The notes under the pieces: generated by a model
The model's database searches: none
What the model was told of the DNA's origin: nothing
The model's input: only the letters and a program-made list of their open reading frames with translations
Shown: in pieces, positions 1 to 19,844 of the stretch
Numbering within the stretch: position 1 is the first letter of the stretch
Layout: the number at the start of each line of letters is the position of its first letter
Origin: a virus
Taxonomy: Duplodnaviria > Heunggongvirae > Uroviricota > Caudoviricetes
Length of the DNA: 22,048 bases
Strand: one strand, 5' to 3'
Virus record (IMG/VR): IMGVR_UViG_3300030444_000103
Location: 1-22,048 of that record
Position numbers and translations under genes: made by a program

Positions 1-24
1 GATACCGCCAAACGTCACCAGAAA
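1..24 (-). ncRNA. dicF: DicF sRNA, 5' portion only (continues off the left edge)
   Basis: Reverse complement of nt 1-24 is TTTCTGGTGACGTTTGGCGGTATC, which matches the recalled 5' end of E. coli DicF; it lies downstream (minus strand) of the ydfC-like gene as in the dicB operon. Recalled from memory, not searched. Confidence 0.5.
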
Positions 25-364: not shown

Positions 365-583
365 TTAACGCGGGTATGTAATCATTCTGGCAATGCTTAA
401 TGCCGCTGCTTTTTCCAGATTGGTGATATCCTGCTCCAGAGAGAACAGATTTTCAGCCTGCTTAGCCCTGGCTTCATTAGCCCATTTCAGATCCTGCGCT
501 GCATTAATTTTCTGGTGCATCCACTCATAAAGTTCATCATCGGTATAGTCTGGCGCGATGATAACGGGTTCTCGTTTCTGCAT
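365..583 (-). CDS. ydfC: YdfC-like small prophage protein (72 aa)
   Basis: 72-aa ORF on the same strand and upstream of dicF; size and operon position match the K-12 dicA-ydfA-ydfB-ydfC-dicF arrangement. Confidence 0.5.
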   Translation of the reverse strand: MQKREPVIIAPDYTDDELYEWMHQKINAAQDLKWANEARAKQAENLFSLEQDITNLEKAAALSIARMITYPR

Positions 584-612
584 ACTGATTCCTTGCGGTG
601 CTGTTTCGCTTA

Positions 613-741
613 TCAGCCGTTAGATTTTGCCGAACTGGAAAGCGCCTGTTTAAATTCGCTGAAGCTGAGAGCTTCTTCGCCTTCGGCAAGGCCTTCGAAG
701 TATTCTTCGTAAGCCTTTTCCATGATTGTGTCGAAATCCAT
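613..741 (-). CDS. ydfB: YdfB-like small protein (42 aa)
   Basis: Hand translation of the minus strand gives MDFDTIMEKAYEEYFEGLAEGEEALSFSEFKQALSSSAKSNG then stop; below the 60-aa ORF-track cutoff; size and position match ydfB. Confidence 0.45.
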   Translation of the reverse strand: MDFDTIMEKAYEEYFEGLAEGEEALSFSEFKQALSSSAKSNG

Positions 742-742
742 A

Positions 743-898
743 TCACCCACCTGAATTTCTTTCCAGCCAGCGACGCGCTCCAGATTCGGTTTTAAACGTT
801 TTGCTTTTGGTATACGTCATTGCGGTGAACGTGCCGTCCTGGTTTGGAAACACGCCGTACACCAGAGATTCGTTGTTGCCAAGATCGATAGTATCCAT
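743..898 (-). CDS. ydfA: YdfA-like small protein (51 aa)
   Basis: Part of track ORF 743..952; internal ATG at 898 is preceded by GAGG and yields 51 aa (MDTIDLGNNESLVYG...), matching the size and position of ydfA. Confidence 0.45.
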   Translation of the reverse strand: MDTIDLGNNESLVYGVFPNQDGTFTAMTYTKSKTFKTESGARRWLERNSGG

Positions 899-1011
899 GC
901 TGACCTCATTTCCCCTTAACGCCGGGGTAGCGGAACTGTTTGCTGAGAACACCGTGCGGTGTCTTGATGGAAAATAATTTAGAATAACCTAACATGAGAG
1001 GCGAGTGTTTT

Positions 1012-1029
1012 TGTTAGATTGATCTAACA
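1012..1029. promoter_or_regulatory. Operator-like palindrome TGTTAGA-N4-TCTAACA downstream of the repressor gene
   Basis: Near-perfect inverted repeat TTGTTAGATTGATCTAACAA read directly; same half-sites as the site at 1523-1540. Confidence 0.5.
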
Positions 1030-1065
1030 AAAAGGGTGGGCGCAACTAATCACTTGAAAAGAATG

Positions 1066-1473
1066 TTATTTTATTGATTTATTTTTACGCGCTTTAAGCA
1101 TTTCTTCGAAGAGTTTGTTGAAGTTTTCTACTCTTGCGCGCATTTCAGACAGCAAGGCTTCCTGCTCGGAAGATGGAAGAGCATCGAATAATTCGATCAA
1201 TTCTTTGTGGTTGGGAGTTAGCTCTGTTTCCACATGAAGTTCTTGTGCAGGCACTGGTGCCTTGTCTTCGTCACCAAACATTAGCCATGTAGGTGAGCAC
1301 TTCAGAGCATCCGCTAAAGCAAACAATCGTTTTCCGACTGGCTGGGTTTCGTCTCTTTCCCATTGTGAAATTGTGACGTGAGCAACTCCAGCGAGGCGCG
1401 CGGCTTCTCGTTGTGTTAAGCGTAATTCTTTTCGTCGCGCCAGAACTCGCTGGCCCAGGGTTCTTGTATCCAT
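1066..1473 (-). CDS. dicA: XRE-family HTH prophage repressor, DicA-like (135 aa)
   Basis: N-terminal HTH (LRLTQREAARLAGVAHVTISQWE); 135 aa; divergent from a 76-aa Cro-like gene and co-directional with ydfA/B/C-dicF, as for DicA. Confidence 0.7.
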   Translation of the reverse strand: MDTRTLGQRVLARRKELRLTQREAARLAGVAHVTISQWERDETQPVGKRLFALADALKCSPTWLMFGDEDKAPVPAQELHVETELTPNHKELIELFDALPSSEQEALLSEMRARVENFNKLFEEMLKARKNKSIK

Positions 1474-1540
1474 AGTTAGGTAATTCTAATTTTTCTTGAC
1501 TTAGGTATCCCGCGCACAATAATGTTAGAAAAGTCTAACA
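1474..1540. promoter_or_regulatory. Divergent repressor/cro control region with two operator sites
   Basis: Perfect TGTTAGA-aaag-TCTAACA at 1523-1540 and a degenerate copy AGTTAGG-taat-TCTAATT at 1474-1491; TTGACT at 1496-1501 followed 17 nt later by ATAATG gives a candidate rightward promoter overlapping the operator. Confidence 0.5.
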
Positions 1541-1553
1541 AGAGGGGGATTTG

Positions 1554-1781
1554 ATGCTTAAAGTTGACGCAATTACTTTTTTTGGCAGCAAAACAAAGCT
1601 TGCCAATGCCGCAGGAGTGAGGCTGGCAAGTGTTGCTGCTTGGGGGATACTGGTTCCTGAAGGTCGCGCGATGCGTCTACAGGAGGCATCTGGCGGGGAG
1701 CTTCAGTATGATCCCAAAGTTTATGATGAATATCGTAAGACGAAGCGGGCGGGGCGGTTGAACAATGAAAATCACTCCTGA
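1554..1781 (+). CDS. dicC: Cro-like small HTH regulator, DicC / YdaS family
   Basis: Track ORF 1551..1781; ATG at 1554 after GAGGGGGA; divergent from the repressor; start could instead be TTG at 1551. Confidence 0.6.
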   Translation: MLKVDAITFFGSKTKLANAAGVRLASVAAWGILVPEGRAMRLQEASGGELQYDPKVYDEYRKTKRAGRLNNENHS

Positions 1782-2286
1782 ACAGGCTCGTGAGGCTCTG
1801 GATGCCTGGATATGTCGACCAGGAATGACACAGGAGCAGGCGACGATATTAATCACTGAAGCATTCTGGGCTTTGAAAGAGCGCCCGAACATCGATGTTC
1901 AGCGTGTCACAGATGAAGGTGGCGCGGTTGATCAGCGAGCGCTTGGTGTTAATCGAGTGAAGATATTCGAACGCTGGAAGGCTATCGACACCAGGGATAA
2001 GCGTGAAAAGTTCACGGCGCTAGTGCCTGCGATTATGGAGGCTATCCGGATTAGTGATTTCAGGTTGTATCGTGAAATTACTGACGGAAAAAGCATCACG
2101 TGCATGATCGCCGGGTTAAACAAAGAATATGGCGATGTGGTGGAGTCCGGACTGCTTTTTGCTGATCCTGCCGTAGTGGATCGTGAAACTGACGAACTTA
2201 TAGAAAAAGCAATTGCTTTCAAGCTTGCGTATCGACAGCAATACCAACAAAAAGCTGGATGGAATTATGAGCCTTCTTTTTGCTGA
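1765..2286 (+). CDS. YdaT-like prophage protein in the cII position
   Basis: 173-aa ORF overlapping the end of the cro-like gene; family assignment is from weak recalled resemblance only. Confidence 0.5.
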   Translation: MKITPEQAREALDAWICRPGMTQEQATILITEAFWALKERPNIDVQRVTDEGGAVDQRALGVNRVKIFERWKAIDTRDKREKFTALVPAIMEAIRISDFRLYREITDGKSITCMIAGLNKEYGDVVESGLLFADPAVVDRETDELIEKAIAFKLAYRQQYQQKAGWNYEPSFC

Positions 2287-5380: not shown

Positions 5381-5559
5381 ATACAGCGAATTCCATTGGT
5401 TTAGTTGGATATTTACTGTGCTGGACAAAAACGGTTTGCGGGGAAATCTTAGTTAAGTAGAATGACTGCGGGTGCTTGAGGCTATCTGCCTCGGGCACGA
5501 ACACCAACGGCAGGTAGAGAAAAGCCCCAGTTAACATTACGCGTCCTGCAAGACGCTTA

Positions 5560-5640
5560 ACATTAATCTGAGGCCAATTTCATGCCAGACACATGTAGGT
5601 TAGCCTCTTACGTGCCGAAAGGCAAGGAGAAGCAGGCTAT
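5560..5640 (+). pseudogene. hok/gef-family 5' region remnant, cut at the start codon
   Basis: GCCTCTTACGTGCCGAAAGGCAAGGAGAAGCAGGCTAT matches the recalled hokC-type leader and SD and resembles the intact hokD start at 8941-8958; the coding sequence is absent after the start-codon position. Confidence 0.4.
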
Positions 5641-7127
5641 TGTTAACACCAAGCTGTAATGTCCCCTTTGAACCATTCTAAAATGTCCCCAGACAATTCT
5701 CTGGGGGATTTTTCATGACCAAAGAAACTGTTACGATGAGTCATAAGGAACTCCACCGACTTCAGATTATTCAGGAGTCAATTAATCGACATATTACTCA
5801 GGAACAAGCTGCGGCACGCATTGGCATTTCTATTCGGCAGGTTAAACGTCTGGTGCAACGGTATAGAAATGAAGGGCCTTCTGGTCTGGTTTCCCACCGA
5901 CGTGGAAAGCGTCCTAATAATTCCTTTTCTACTGAATTCAGAGCAACAGTAATTTTACTCCTCAAAGGCCGTTACGCTGATTTTGGACCTACGTTTGCGT
6001 GCGAAAAATTGCGCGAGATACACGGTTTATCTTTATCCGTTGAAACTCTCAGAAAGTGGATGATAGAAGAGGGGGGTATGGCGTGAACGCCGTCGTAAAA
6101 TTGCCCGTATATATCAACGCCGCATGCGACGACCATCTTACGGTGAACTGATCCAGATTGATGGCTCACCTCATGACTGGTTTGAAAATCGAGGCCCCAG
6201 ATGTACACTGATCGTTTTCATTGATGATGCCACCAGTGCGTTGATGGCGTTGCGTTTTGTGCCTGCTGAAACAACCCGGGCTTACATGGAAACCCTCCGG
6301 GGTTACCTTAATGATCATGGCGTACCGCTCGCTCTCTACTCTGATAGACACAGTATATTCAGGGTAAATAACCCAGAGCGGGAAGGTGAGCTGACCCAGT
6401 TCACTCGTGCGATAAAGACACTGGGCATCGAGCCAATCCATGCCAACAGCCCGCAGGCAAAAGGGCGGGTAGAGCGCGCCAATCAGACACTACAGGACAG
6501 GCTGGTCAAAGAAATGCGGCTTCAGAATATCAGTGATATTGAAACAGCAAATGCATGGTTGCCGACCTTTATTGAAGCCTATAACAACCGGTTCGCTACG
6601 TCGCCTCGTACTACTGATAATGCTCATCTTGATGTGCACCATTCTGAAGAGGAACTGGGTTATATCTTCAGCCTACAGGCGAAGCGCGTTCTGTCTAAAA
6701 ATCTCACTTTCCAGTACAAAAGCAGTGCGTTTCAGGTACGCAGTGAGGGCCGGGGATATCGACTTAGGCATTCGGTTGTTACTGTATGCGAGAACTTTGA
6801 CGGTGAAATTAACGTTCTGTATGACGGGAAAGCGCTGGGCTGGGAAAAGTATGTTGATGGCCCGGAGCCTATACCACTGGATGATGAAAAGAGTGTCCAT
6901 GAACGAGTGGATAATGCCCGTATTGATTTACGCTCAAAATACTATGTTAAACCTAAAGCTGACCATCCCTGGCTTACGCGCCGAACGCAAAGTCATCAGC
7001 AAGTTAAGCCCCCGAAGTTACCTAAAAAGAAGCCTGATCCCGATAAAAAAGATTGAAACCAAGATCGATTCGGTTGAGTGCATATCCATTCATAGGGTAG
7101 ATTCTTAAGTCGCGTTTCTGGTGTTCA
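5641..7127 (+). mobile_element. Insertion sequence with a DDE (rve) transposase, IS481/ISNCY-like; boundaries approximate
   Basis: Begins where hok homology ends; candidate imperfect terminal inverted repeats TGTTAACACCA (left) and TGAACACCA (right, reverse complement); no clear target-site duplication. Confidence 0.4.
5715..7056 (+). pseudogene. DDE transposase split into two ORFs by a frameshift in a G6 run (6071-6076)
   Basis: ORF 5715..6086 carries the N-terminal HTH; ORF 6124..7056 carries the integrase core; the alternative frame across the G run reads ...EEGVWRERRRKIARIYQRRMRRPSYGELIQ..., joining them. Confidence 0.7.
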
Positions 7128-12375: not shown

Positions 12376-12675
12376 AAAAATTCCTTAATACTGATAACTT
12401 GGCGCACTATACACACGTTCCTGAAGAAAGCTATAGTTTTTTGATGGGGTTGAAGATGGCTGGATGTCTAAAATAAACATTGCTTCATATGTTCAACTAT
12501 GCGTTAATGATTGCGTCGGTTTGAAGAACAGACGATATACGAAGTAGTTTACTAAAGCAGTTCTCATTTCAGGTGTTATTCACTTATTCCTTCTTTGAGT
12601 CTCTCCAATTAAGTACGAAGTCGTTTCTGTTATGCAAACCATTTATGCCGAAAGGCTCAAGTTAAGGAATGTAGA

Positions 12676-12891
12676 ATGTCAAATAAAATGACTGGTTTAG
12701 TAAAATGGTTTAACGCTGATAAAGGTTTCGGCTTTATTTCTCCTGTTGATGGTAGTAAAGATGTGTTTGTGCATTTTTCTGCGATTCAGAATGATAATTA
12801 TCGAACCTTATTTGAAGGTCAAAAGGTTACCTTCTCTATAGAGAGTGGTGCTAAAGGTCCTGCAGCAGCAAATGTCATCATTACTGATTAA
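12676..12891 (+). CDS. cspB: Cold-shock protein, CspB-like
   Basis: 71 aa, [38 protein letters not shown]...; divergent from the cspF-like gene. Confidence 0.85.
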
Positions 12892-13173
12892 AATTCATCG
12901 CTCGTCTGTATACGATAACGAAGAAGGCTGATGCCTGAGTAGAGATACGGACAGAGTAGTGAATATTGGATCTCTTTAATAAAAAGTAAGGAGGTCCAAT
13001 ACATGAAACAATGGCTAGCATATTTGGCAAAATCTTAATCAGGAAAAGTATGCTAACCATTGTGGTGAAGTGCAGGTTTGCTGCATGAATAGTTTTACAG
13101 CAGAAGCTAACTGCTGGCATGGCAAAACAAAGTGCGTAAGTGGATGACTCCCACAAAAAGCACCACAATCTCA

Positions 13174-15200: not shown

Positions 15201-15563
15201 GGTAATATTAAATCGGAACATTTACATCGCGGAATGTAAAATTTAAATAAAAAGGACTCTTCCATGAGCCAAAATTCCTGAAATCTTAAGGGTAAGATAA
15301 AAGGTCTTAATCAGAATGACACGTTATTATTAATAAATAAAGCTATTCTTTCATTGCTGTGTTTTTCTTTACAAAAGTAATCCTTGCTATGGGTGGTTAA
15401 TCATGCGTTAATGGTGTTCTGGTTTGTTACAAATTTATCTGAAGCAGTCATTGTTATAATTTTATTATTTGTACCTCTTGAGATTTCCTTGTTGGTTTTT
15501 CTCTCTGATATTTTTTTTCGGACCATTCTGCCCAAGGGCTAATTTCTTCAAAAGGTAATAATT

Positions 15564-15776
15564 ATGTCTAACAAAATGACTGGTTTAGTGAAATGGTTTA
15601 ACCCTGAAAAAGGTTTTGGTTTCATCACGCCGAAAGATGGCAGCAAAGATGTGTTTGTCCATTTCTCAGCAATTCAGAGCAACGATTTCAAAACATTAAC
15701 TGAGAATCAGGAAGTTGAATTTGGTATTGAGAACGGACCTAAAGGTCCTGCCGCTGTTCATGTAGTGGCGCTTTGA
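15564..15776 (+). CDS. cspI: Cold-shock protein, CspI-like
   Basis: 70 aa, [45 protein letters not shown]...; long AT-rich 5' leader. Confidence 0.8.
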
Positions 15777-15981
15777 GGTAGACAATATTACAAACCATAT
15801 TCACTTTAGATGCCCGTGTTGTCATGGTTCCCAGTATAGAACATCATCTTTTGATGTTTCTGACATGAATCCTTTCGGGGCAAAATGTATCTTTTGTAAA
15901 TCAATGATGATTACATTTGATAATATTTCACAATACTTAAATGCCAGCCGTCTGTCGTTGGATTTAAAAAAGTGAAAATGA

Positions 15982-19769: not shown

Positions 19770-19844
19770 TGGTGTCCCCTGCAGGAATCGAACCTGCAAT
19801 TAGCCCTTAGGAGGGGCTCGTTATATCCATTTAACTAAGAGGAC
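19770..19844 (-). tRNA. argW: tRNA-Arg (anticodon CCU)
   Basis: Reverse complement GTCCTCTTAGTTAAATGGATATAACGAGCCCCTCCTAAGGGCTAATTGCAGGTTCGATTCCTGCAGGGGACACCA folds as a cloverleaf with anticodon CCT and an encoded CCA. Confidence 0.9.

What the first reader, a model, noticed from the sequence alone, without database searches (positions are those of the whole stretch)
1012..1540. Operator palindromes on both sides of the repressor gene
TGTTAGA-N4-TCTAACA occurs at 1012-1029 (downstream of the DicA-like gene) and at 1523-1540 (overlapping the cro-side promoter), with a degenerate third copy at 1474-1491. Sites flanking the repressor gene could permit looping or control of a second leftward promoter in front of the ydfA-ydfB-ydfC-dicF(-dicB) operon.
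Basis: seen in the sequence. Interest (0 to 1): 0.4.

Follow-up and report, generated by a model that had tools for sequence, protein, structure and literature searches.

The report
Prophage repressor operators flanking its gene
The two identical palindromes are real and are almost certainly the left and right operator sites of a Qin-like E. coli prophage immunity switch, an arrangement already described for the K-12 dicA/dicC/dicB locus, so this is an ordinary member of a known kind.

Summary
Both exact copies of TGTTAGA-N4-TCTAACA (1012-1029, 1523-1540) exist and are far beyond chance. The window is a Qin-like lambdoid prophage of E. coli. It has a 135-aa DicA-like repressor (1066-1473, minus strand) and a divergent Cro/DicC-like gene. 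Leftward lie ydfA-ydfB-ydfC and the first 23 nt of DicF.

The right copy covers the start site of the cro-side promoter. The left copy lies 7 bp upstream of the -35 of a leftward promoter homologous to K-12 dicBp.

Across 12 immunity types this layout is constant, and the left sites change in step with the right operator. Within 76 loci of this type the half-sites are nearly invariant while the first two central bases vary freely, as expected for a P22 c2-type dimer site.

Published work on K-12 reports operators in both regions, DicA repression of dicBp, and DicC ChIP peaks on either side of dicA.

So control of a leftward promoter is supported. Looping is neither supported nor excluded. Verdict: a new allele of a known design; low interest.

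The parts
1523..1540 (.). Right (cro-side) strong operator, a perfect 7-N4-7 palindrome equivalent to K-12 Oc. Centred at about +1.5 of the rightward promoter and about -55.5 of the inferred repressor promoter.
   Evidence: Exact match. Same position as K-12 Oc (TTGTTAGTTATGACTAACAA), which binds DicA in vivo (PMC3441716). Half-sites are almost invariant in 76 same-type loci while the centre varies.
1496..1523 (+). Rightward PR-like promoter for the Cro/DicC-like gene: -35 TTGACT (1496-1501), 16-nt spacer, -10 AATAAT (1518-1523).
   Evidence: Promoter scan, 10 of 12 consensus matches. The same layout is present in K-12 (TTGACT-17-TATCTT, read).
1474..1491 (.). Weak Oa-like site (4 of 14 mismatches) abutting the repressor ATG. 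It overlaps a candidate -10 (TAGAAT, 1488..1483 on the minus strand) for a near-leaderless repressor mRNA.
   Evidence: Invariant in 76 same-type loci, but the same sequence is shared with the PPompW type, whose strong operator differs. K-12 Oa did not bind DicA in vivo (PMC3441716). Its function as an operator is doubtful.
1066..1473 (-). 135-aa DicA-like immunity repressor: an N-terminal P22 c2-like HTH domain plus a short C-terminal domain, with no peptidase/cleavage domain.
   Evidence: ORF. RefSeq WP_000381212.1. 55% identical to K-12 DicA. Matches P22 c2 N-terminal domain structures at E = 1e-18. Pfam HTH_3 only.
1554..1781 (+). Cro/DicC-like gene.
   Evidence: Pfam P22_Cro, E = 5e-12. 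RefSeq annotation in the near-identical record.
1012..1029 (.). Left distal operator, a perfect palindrome centred about -51.5 from the inferred leftward start site. It ends 7 bp upstream of the -35.
   Evidence: Exact match. The position is conserved in 12 immunity types. Half-sites are near-invariant, and the first two of the four central bases differ in 17 and 10 of 37 haplotypes.
999..1004 (-). -35 hexamer of the leftward (dicBp-equivalent, PL-like) promoter. It reads TCGCCT here; relatives have TTGCCT, and K-12 has TTGACC.
   Evidence: Positional homology across types. G at 1003 is private to this window. The promoter is inferred, not mapped.
977..994 (.). Left proximal operator (3 mismatches), covering the promoter spacer and -10 and centred about -16.5.
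   Evidence: Nearly invariant in 37 haplotypes while its immediate flanks vary. An equivalent site lies 35-37 bp from the distal one in all 12 types.
976..981 (-). -10 hexamer TAAATT of the leftward promoter, with a 17-nt spacer. The predicted start site is about 969.
   Evidence: Conserved TAAATT or TAATCT at the same spacing in most types. Inferred from sequence.
365..898 (-). First genes of the leftward operon: ydfA (743-898), ydfB (613-741), ydfC (365-583).
   Evidence: RefSeq annotation of the 99.9%-identical record. DUF1391 hit for ydfA.
1..23 (-). First 23 nt of the DicF sRNA gene, cut off by the window edge.
   Evidence: Rfam RF00039 partial match. Complete DicF, then dicB and ydfD, in the near-identical locus L002.

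Best explanation
The palindromes are the operators of a lambdoid immunity switch of the Qin dicA/dicC type. A dimer of the 135-aa repressor, and probably also the Cro-like protein, recognises 18-bp sites. These consist of two 7-bp half-sites (TGTTAGA) around four central bases presumed, by analogy with P22 c2, to be uncontacted. On the right, the perfect site 1523-1540 covers the start point of the cro-side promoter and shuts it off. On the left, two sites 35 bp apart bracket the -35 of a PL-like promoter that drives ydfA-ydfB-ydfC-dicF-dicB. The imperfect proximal site (977-994) covers the spacer and -10 and blocks RNA polymerase. The perfect distal site (1012-1029) is the high-affinity anchor and probably helps fill the weaker proximal site. 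Shown here: the sites, their significance, their conserved layout, their co-variation with immunity type and their selective conservation. Inferred: binding, the promoter position, cooperativity, and repression of the toxic cell-division genes in the lysogen.
For: (1) Two exact copies, with none in 100 shuffles. They and the 3-mismatch copy are the only matches with 3 or fewer mismatches in 22 kb, and all three lie in the two regions flanking the repressor gene. (2) The repressor N-terminal domain is P22 c2-like. [quoted passage not shown] (3) In 76 loci (37 haplotypes) with this repressor, operator positions vary less than other intergenic positions (Fisher p = 0.0012, Mann-Whitney p = 1.4e-4), while the first two central bases are the most variable columns. 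(4) In 12 immunity types from Escherichia, Citrobacter, Enterobacter and others, the order is the same: stop codon, distal site, -35, proximal site over the spacer and -10. The distal-to-proximal distance is 35-37 bp, and the promoter spacer is 17 nt in ten types, 18 in L004 and 12 as computed for L026. (5) Left sites co-vary with the right operator: TGTTAG..CTAACA, CCTTAG..CTAAGG, TTGAG..CTCAA and TGTTGAG..TAAACA. The mean best match of a type's right operator is 2.4 mismatches in its own left region and 4.5 in others (no permutation in 100,000 did as well). For four clearly distinct classes the diagonal is the minimum of every row and column. (6) In K-12, both the dicA-dicC and the dicA-dicBp regions are reported to contain operators; dicBp is PL-like and rises 22-fold on dicA deletion (PMC10448788). 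DicC ChIP-seq infers one site on either side of dicA (PMC11430063). DicA binds Oc, and one base change in CTAACA abolishes binding (PMC3441716).
Against: No binding or transcription data exist for this allele. The leftward promoter is weak by consensus (TCGCCT-17-TAAATT) and was not called by the promoter scan; its position rests on homology. The strongest left site lies outside the core promoter, so simple occlusion by that site alone would not explain repression. The immunity types compared are related to one another, so the permutation p-value overstates independence. K-12 is said to have three operators per side, but only two per side are recognisable here.
Confidence: 0.85

Rival explanations
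1. Looping: repressor dimers bound at 1012-1029 and 1523-1540 (511 bp apart) contact each other and loop out the repressor gene, giving long-range cooperativity as lambda CI does between OL and OR. This could act on top of local repression.
For: Two perfect, identical sites flank the gene. The distal left site lies outside the core promoter, so an extra role is conceivable. The same 511-bp distance occurs in K-12 and in two other types. The lambda precedent comes from my own knowledge of Dodd and colleagues' work and was not checked here.
Against: Across 12 types the distance ranges from 502 to 564 bp, with fractional helical turns spread from 0.05 to 0.81. The repeated 511 bp follows simply from shared gene and spacer lengths. 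In K-12 and several other types the left sites are imperfect. The repressor has only about 65 residues beyond the HTH domain and no known tetramer or octamer interface. No paper on DicA looping was found in the library.
Confidence: 0.15
2. The left palindrome acts as an RNA hairpin that terminates transcription of the repressor gene, rather than as a protein-binding site.
For: The extended palindrome 1008-1033 folds into an 11-bp stem just downstream of the repressor stop (z = -3.1). No other terminator-like element lies between the stop codon and the leftward promoter.
Against: The stem is A/U-rich and is followed by AAAAACAC, not a U tract. The terminator scan did not call it. Homologous distal sites in K-12 and other types are imperfect palindromes that would fold poorly, yet they keep the operator half-site. 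Within this type the central bases vary while half-sites are fixed; that matches a protein site, although mutually complementary half-sites would also keep the stem. This reading does not explain the identity with the right operator.
Confidence: 0.05
3. The sites are used mainly by the Cro/DicC-like protein to shut off early transcription during lytic development, and the repressor binds only the right operator.
For: DicC ChIP-seq in K-12 gives peaks on both sides of dicA, with a palindromic TT(A/C/T)G...C(G/A/T)AA motif (PMC11430063). Cro co-varies with the immunity module just as the repressor does, so the comparative data cannot separate the two proteins.
Against: dicBp is derepressed 22-fold on dicA deletion, and dicC deletion has no effect (PMC10448788). 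The 18-bp 7-N4-7 geometry matches the repressor's P22 c2-type domain (PMC4267663). In lambdoid switches the repressor and Cro share operators (established knowledge).
Confidence: 0.08
4. The second copy is a chance match or a leftover duplication with no function.
For: The 3' flanks of the two copies are also somewhat alike (25 nt, 76% identity), as a duplication would leave.
Against: The expectation is 1.3e-4 per window. Half-sites are conserved while flanks and centre diverge in 37 haplotypes. The sites co-vary across immunity types.
Confidence: 0.02

Closest known systems
Qin cryptic prophage dicA-dicC-dicBp immunity locus of E. coli K-12 (operators Oa/Om/Oc and the dicBp operators; Bejar 1988 as cited in PMC10448788; Yun 2012, PMC3441716)
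   Same: Same gene order, and the repressor is also 135 aa (55% identity). The operator geometry is the same and the half-site nearly so (TGTTAGT against TGTTAGA). The position of Oc over the cro-side start is the same. Two left sites lie 35 bp apart bracketing the -35 of the promoter in front of ydfA, and the Oc-to-distal distance is the same 511 bp. The downstream ydfABC-dicF-dicB operon is also shared.
   Different: This is a different repressor and Cro allele. Here the distal left site and the right site are perfect and identical, whereas both K-12 left sites carry 3-4 mismatches to Oc. No middle (Om-like) site is recognisable here. The -35 of the leftward promoter is TTGCCT in this type (TCGCCT in this window) against TTGACC in K-12.
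Phage P22 c2 repressor with its OL and OR operators
   Same: The N-terminal domain is homologous (E = 1e-18) and the Cro is of the P22_Cro family. Operators are 18 bp, rotationally symmetric, with four uncontacted central base pairs, and are present on both sides of the repressor gene (PMC4267663).
   Different: The half-site sequence differs; P22's is ATTTAAG (from my own knowledge). The repressor here lacks the RecA-cleavable C-terminal domain (135 aa against 216 aa, PMC10448788). The left operators are 35 bp apart with the -35 between them, rather than closely packed. Two rather than three sites per side are recognisable.
Phage lambda CI with OL-OR long-range looping
   Same: Operators for one repressor lie on both sides of its gene, controlling PL-like and PR-like promoters.
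   Different: The lambda loop spans about 2.4 kb and depends on CI C-terminal domain tetramer and octamer contacts (my own knowledge). Here the distance is 0.5 kb, the C-terminal region is unrelated and short, and no phase conservation was found. The resemblance concerns layout, not a demonstrated mechanism.

Membership tests
Lambdoid immunity region with OR-type and OL-type operator clusters (Qin dicA/dicC/dicBp subtype) | Divergent repressor and cro genes, with an operator overlapping the rightward promoter in the intergenic region | tested here: met
   Repressor at 1066-1473 (minus strand), Cro-like gene at 1554-1781 (plus strand), promoter TTGACT-16-AATAAT and the site 1523-1540.
Lambdoid immunity region with OR-type and OL-type operator clusters (Qin dicA/dicC/dicBp subtype) | A second operator cluster beyond the 3' end of the repressor gene, overlapping a leftward early promoter | tested here: met
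   Sites 1012-1029 and 977-994 bracket the -35 (999-1004) and overlap the -10 (976-981). The layout is conserved in 12 types and homologous to K-12 dicBp. The promoter itself is inferred, not mapped.
Lambdoid immunity region with OR-type and OL-type operator clusters (Qin dicA/dicC/dicBp subtype) | Left and right clusters share one recognition sequence that changes with immunity type | tested here: met
   Mismatch matrix: 2.4 on the diagonal against 4.5 off it. For four distinct classes the diagonal is the minimum of every row and column.
Lambdoid immunity region with OR-type and OL-type operator clusters (Qin dicA/dicC/dicBp subtype) | Three operators in each cluster | tested here: not met
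   Only two recognisable sites per side. The middle position on the right (1502-1519) has about 7 of 14 mismatches by eye. The right weak site is at chance level by sequence. This lowers the claim of a full lambda-like tripartite operator, not the claim of operator function.
Lambdoid immunity region with OR-type and OL-type operator clusters (Qin dicA/dicC/dicBp subtype) | The repressor binds the sites and represses both promoters | not testable with these tools
   Shown only for the K-12 homologue: Oc binding (PMC3441716), dicBp repression (PMC10448788) and DicC peaks on both sides of dicA (PMC11430063).
P22 c2-type repressor operator | Repressor HTH domain homologous to P22 c2 | tested here: met
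   phmmer against PDB: 1adr, 2r1j and 3jxb at E = 1e-18 to 1e-17 over residues 1-71.
P22 c2-type repressor operator | 18-bp symmetric site with contacted outer halves and four uncontacted central base pairs | tested here: met
   7-N4-7 palindromes. In 37 haplotypes, half-site columns differ in 0-2 haplotypes and central columns in 17, 10, 1 and 0. The geometry is as described in PMC4267663.
Lambda-type OL-OR DNA looping | The repressor forms higher-order oligomers that bridge distant operators | not testable with these tools
   No family hit for the C-terminal 65 residues. No literature was found.
Lambda-type OL-OR DNA looping | Constraint on the distance or phase between left and right operators | tested here: inconclusive
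   The distance is 502-564 bp with no common helical phase, but phase matters little for loops of about 500 bp.
Intrinsic (Rho-independent) terminator | G+C-rich stem-loop followed by a U tract | tested here: not met
   The stem is A/U-rich with 11 bp and is followed by AAAAACAC. The terminator scan did not report it.

The most novel reading that the evidence does not exclude
The perfect distal operator sits outside the core leftward promoter, only 36 nt after the repressor stop codon, with no terminator in between. It might therefore do more than help fill the proximal site. Bound repressor could act as a roadblock that insulates the toxic ydfA-dicF-dicB operon from read-through of the repressor's own transcript. 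It could also pair with the identical right operator 511 bp away, giving a small loop formed by a short repressor that lacks the usual cleavage domain.
Probability: 0.15. Interest if true: 0.45.

Novelty: new member of a known kind. Interest (0 to 1): 0.15.

Why it matters
The sites give a clean operator definition for one common DicA-type immunity allele. That repressor was found in 565 of 5,426 complete E. coli genomes at 80% or more coverage, and in many viral contigs. [quoted passage not shown] The set of co-varying operator and repressor types could serve as a natural specificity table for P22 c2-like HTH domains. It does not change the understanding of lambdoid switches.

Tried and rejected
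(1) Terminator reading of the left palindrome: folded as RNA and scanned. There is no U tract and no G+C-rich stem, so it was rejected as the main function. (2) Helical-phase test for looping across 12 types: no conserved phase, so uninformative rather than decisive. (3) Search for further operator copies elsewhere in the 22 kb, for example near an antirepressor or late genes: none with 3 or fewer mismatches. (4) A middle, Om-like operator on the right side: not recognisable in this type by eye. (5) Rfam search of the leftward leader at a permissive threshold: only the truncated DicF matched. (6) RNAalifold on a MAFFT alignment of the leader gave a poor, misaligned consensus; the single-sequence folds were more informative. 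(7) Literature searches for DicA looping and for DicA in the ChIP compendium paper found nothing. (8) I did not run structure prediction of the repressor, because a monomer model would not settle its oligomeric state.

Full report
**Observation.** The window carries TGTTAGATTGATCTAACA at 1012-1029 and TGTTAGAAAAGTCTAACA at 1523-1540, both exact matches to TGTTAGA-N4-TCTAACA. None of 100 dinucleotide-preserving shuffles produced even one exact match, and base composition predicts 1.3e-4 per window.

Only one further match with 3 or fewer mismatches exists in the 22 kb: ATTTAGAATAACCTAACA at 977-994, 35 bp left of the first copy. Fifteen such matches occur in the window against 10 expected, so by sequence alone it is not distinguishable from chance.

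**Context.** Window 700-1800 is 99.9% identical to a chromosomal prophage of E. coli GF43, and 565 of 5,426 complete E. coli genomes hold at least 80% of it. RefSeq annotation of that record and my own scans give the following map:

- minus strand: ydfC 365-583, ydfB 613-741, ydfA 743-898 (DUF1391), and a 135-aa helix-turn-helix repressor at 1066-1473
- plus strand: a P22_Cro-family gene at 1554-1781 and a YdaT-family gene at 1765-2286

Window 1-23 (minus strand) is the first 23 nt of DicF, cut by the window edge. The near-identical locus has complete DicF, then dicB and ydfD.

The repressor is 55% identical to K-12 DicA. Its first 70 residues match P22 c2 repressor structures at E = 1e-18, and it has no cleavage domain. 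The region is therefore the immunity region of a Qin-like lambdoid prophage, with a repressor allele different from K-12's.

**Anatomy on the right.** A TTGACT-16-AATAAT promoter (1496-1501 / 1518-1523) points at the cro-like gene. The perfect site begins at the last base of the -10 and is centred at about +1.5. K-12 has the same arrangement, with Oc = TTGTTAGTTATGACTAACAA.

**Anatomy on the left.** Read on the minus strand, the order after the repressor stop codon is:

- 36 nt of spacer, then the perfect site (1029..1012)
- 7 nt, then TCGCCT (1004..999)
- a 17-nt spacer, then TAAATT (981..976)

The imperfect site (994..977) fills the spacer and the -10. Taking 976 as position -7, the start site is about 969. 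The proximal site is then centred at -16.5 and the perfect distal site at -51.5.

K-12 aligns base for base. It has TTGACC-17-TAATCT and two imperfect sites 35 bp apart. That K-12 region is the published dicBp.

**Comparative test 1: layout.** I collected the same region from 13 annotated records and about 100 loci found with a repressor profile.

In 12 immunity types the order is the same: stop codon, distal site, -35, proximal site over the spacer and -10. These types come from Escherichia, Citrobacter, Enterobacter, Superficieibacter and Rahnella. The distal-to-proximal distance is always 35-37 bp. The promoter spacer is 17 nt in ten types, 18 in L004, and 12 as computed for L026, where the -10 assignment is uncertain.

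**Comparative test 2: co-variation.** The strong right operator differs between types, and the left sites follow it:

- TGTTAG..CTAACA in this type, K-12 and the Citrobacter-like types
- CCTTAG..CTAAGG in the PPompW type and Enterobacter
- (A/C)TTGAG..CTCAA in HannyBb and mEp460
- TGTTGAG..TAAACA in two further types

Scoring each type's right operator against every type's left region gives 2.4 mismatches on the diagonal and 4.5 off it. No permutation in 100,000 did as well. The types are related, so this overstates independence. With one representative for each of four clearly distinct classes, the diagonal is still the minimum of every row and column.

**Comparative test 3: selection within this type.** There are 76 loci with this repressor, forming 37 distinct left-region haplotypes. 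The 14 half-site columns of the distal site differ from the majority in 0-2 haplotypes each. The four central columns differ in 17, 10, 1 and 0.

The proximal site is almost invariant, while the 5 nt between it and the -35 and the bases after the -10 vary freely. Operator columns are less variable than other intergenic columns (Fisher p = 0.0012; Mann-Whitney p = 1.4e-4).

Conserved outer halves with a free centre fit what is described for P22 repressor. It binds 18-bp sites as a dimer and does not touch the central four base pairs (PMC4267663).

**Literature.** For K-12 Qin, the dicA-dicC region and the region between dicA and dicBp are each stated to contain three operators like those of lambda PR and PL. 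dicBp is described as PL-like, and deleting dicA raises dicBp-lacZ 22-fold (PMC10448788). [quoted passage not shown] DicA binds Oc in vivo, a single A-to-C change in CTAACA abolishes binding, and the sites called Om and Oa did not bind (PMC3441716).

**Mechanism.** The best-supported reading (0.85) is local operator control on both sides. The right site blocks the cro-side promoter. The left pair controls the PL-like promoter of the ydfA-dicF-dicB operon: the proximal site does the occluding, and the perfect distal site acts as the high-affinity partner.

- Shown: the sites, the layout, the co-variation and the conservation.
- Inferred: binding, promoter position, cooperativity and the physiological outcome.

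**Rivals.** Looping between the two perfect sites is possible but unsupported. The distance between right and distal-left operators is 511 bp here and in K-12, but 502-564 bp across types with no common helical phase. The oligomeric state of the repressor is unknown.

A terminator role for the left palindrome is unlikely. The stem is an 11-bp A/U-rich hairpin without a U tract, and it is not conserved as a hairpin in other types.

An exclusive role for Cro cannot be separated from the repressor by comparative data, but it conflicts with the K-12 genetics.

**Comparison and novelty.** This is a member of the Qin dicA/dicC/dicBp type of lambdoid immunity region, with P22 c2-type operators. It differs from K-12 in three ways:

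- the repressor allele
- one half-site position (A instead of T)
- perfect, identical sites at the right and distal-left positions

Only two recognisable sites are present per side, so the three-operator feature is not met. I rate it a new member of a known kind, of low interest.

**Side observations.**

- *Private base at 1003.* The only difference from strain GF43 in 1,101 bp is G at 1003, which turns the -35 TTGCCT into TCGCCT. No exact match to 978-1035 exists in 5,426 complete genomes or in 75 other loci of this type.
- *Conserved leader.* The transcribed leader between the leftward promoter and ydfA (about 965-905, minus strand) is conserved across immunity types. It contains two hairpins whose stems change in a compensatory way. 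It has no Rfam family, and in the phage collection it occurs only next to these modules or ydfA.
- *No terminator after the repressor gene.* This type and K-12 have no terminator between the repressor gene and the leftward promoter, unlike the PPompW and HannyBb types.
- *Specificity outside helix 3.* This type and the PPompW type have identical third helices, yet their operators differ at the two outer bases. Specificity there tracks helix 2 instead.

Noticed in passing
window 1003 (within the -35 at 999-1004, minus strand): G at 1003 changes the -35 of the leftward dicBp-like promoter from TTGCCT to TCGCCT. It is the only difference from E. coli GF43 over window 700-1800. It is absent from all 260 matching complete genomes and from 75 other loci with this repressor. 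It could be a promoter-down mutation that reduces expression of the toxic dicF/dicB operon, or a sequencing error.
   Followed up: yes
window about 905-965, minus strand (leader between the leftward promoter and ydfA): A conserved leader with two hairpins: GACACC-GCAC-GGTGTT and CCCC-GGCGTTAA-GGGG, separated by CTCAG...GTTCCGC. The stems change in a compensatory way in other immunity types (for example AATCACC/GGTGATT, CCCTG/CAGGG, GCC/GGC). No Rfam family matches, and it is found only beside DicA-type modules or ydfA in phage records. It might be a nut/put-like or RNase-processing element; this is untested.
   Followed up: partly
window 1030-1065; compare L004 and L005 downstream of the repressor stop: No intrinsic terminator lies between the repressor stop codon and the leftward promoter in this type or in K-12. 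The PPompW and HannyBb types have a hairpin plus T-run there. How read-through from the repressor gene into ydfA-dicF-dicB is prevented is unclear.
   Followed up: partly
window 1066-1473 (repressor residues about 20-45), compared with L004: This repressor and the PPompW-type repressor have an identical recognition helix (VAHVTISQWERDETQP), but their operators differ at the two outer bases (TGTTAG against CCTTAG). The difference correlates with helix 2 (TQREAARLAG against SQAALGKLVK, the latter like P22 c2).
   Followed up: no
window 1473-1491, minus strand: The repressor gene has no Shine-Dalgarno sequence. A TAGAAT -10-like hexamer (1488..1483) ends 9 nt before the ATG, suggesting a leaderless or near-leaderless mRNA like lambda cI from PRM.
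   Followed up: no
window 1474-1505, compared with L004 1601-1632: The first 32 nt or so of the repressor-cro intergenic region, including the weak Oa-like site and the -35 TTGACT, are nearly identical between this type and the PPompW type. Their strong operators nevertheless differ, pointing to a recombination junction inside the intergenic region.
   Followed up: no
window 5470-5641 (+), 12515-12907 (+), 15418-15803 (+), 19773-19844 (-): Rfam finds a sok antitoxin RNA, two cspA-type thermoregulator 5' UTRs and one tRNA elsewhere in the prophage window.
   Followed up: no
L003 (Escherichia phage PhiR42_1, PV340562.1): A complete 48.7-kb phage from E. coli ECOR13 carries a repressor identical in protein sequence to K-12 DicA, with the same operators. 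The 'cryptic' Qin immunity module therefore also exists in an apparently intact phage.
   Followed up: no
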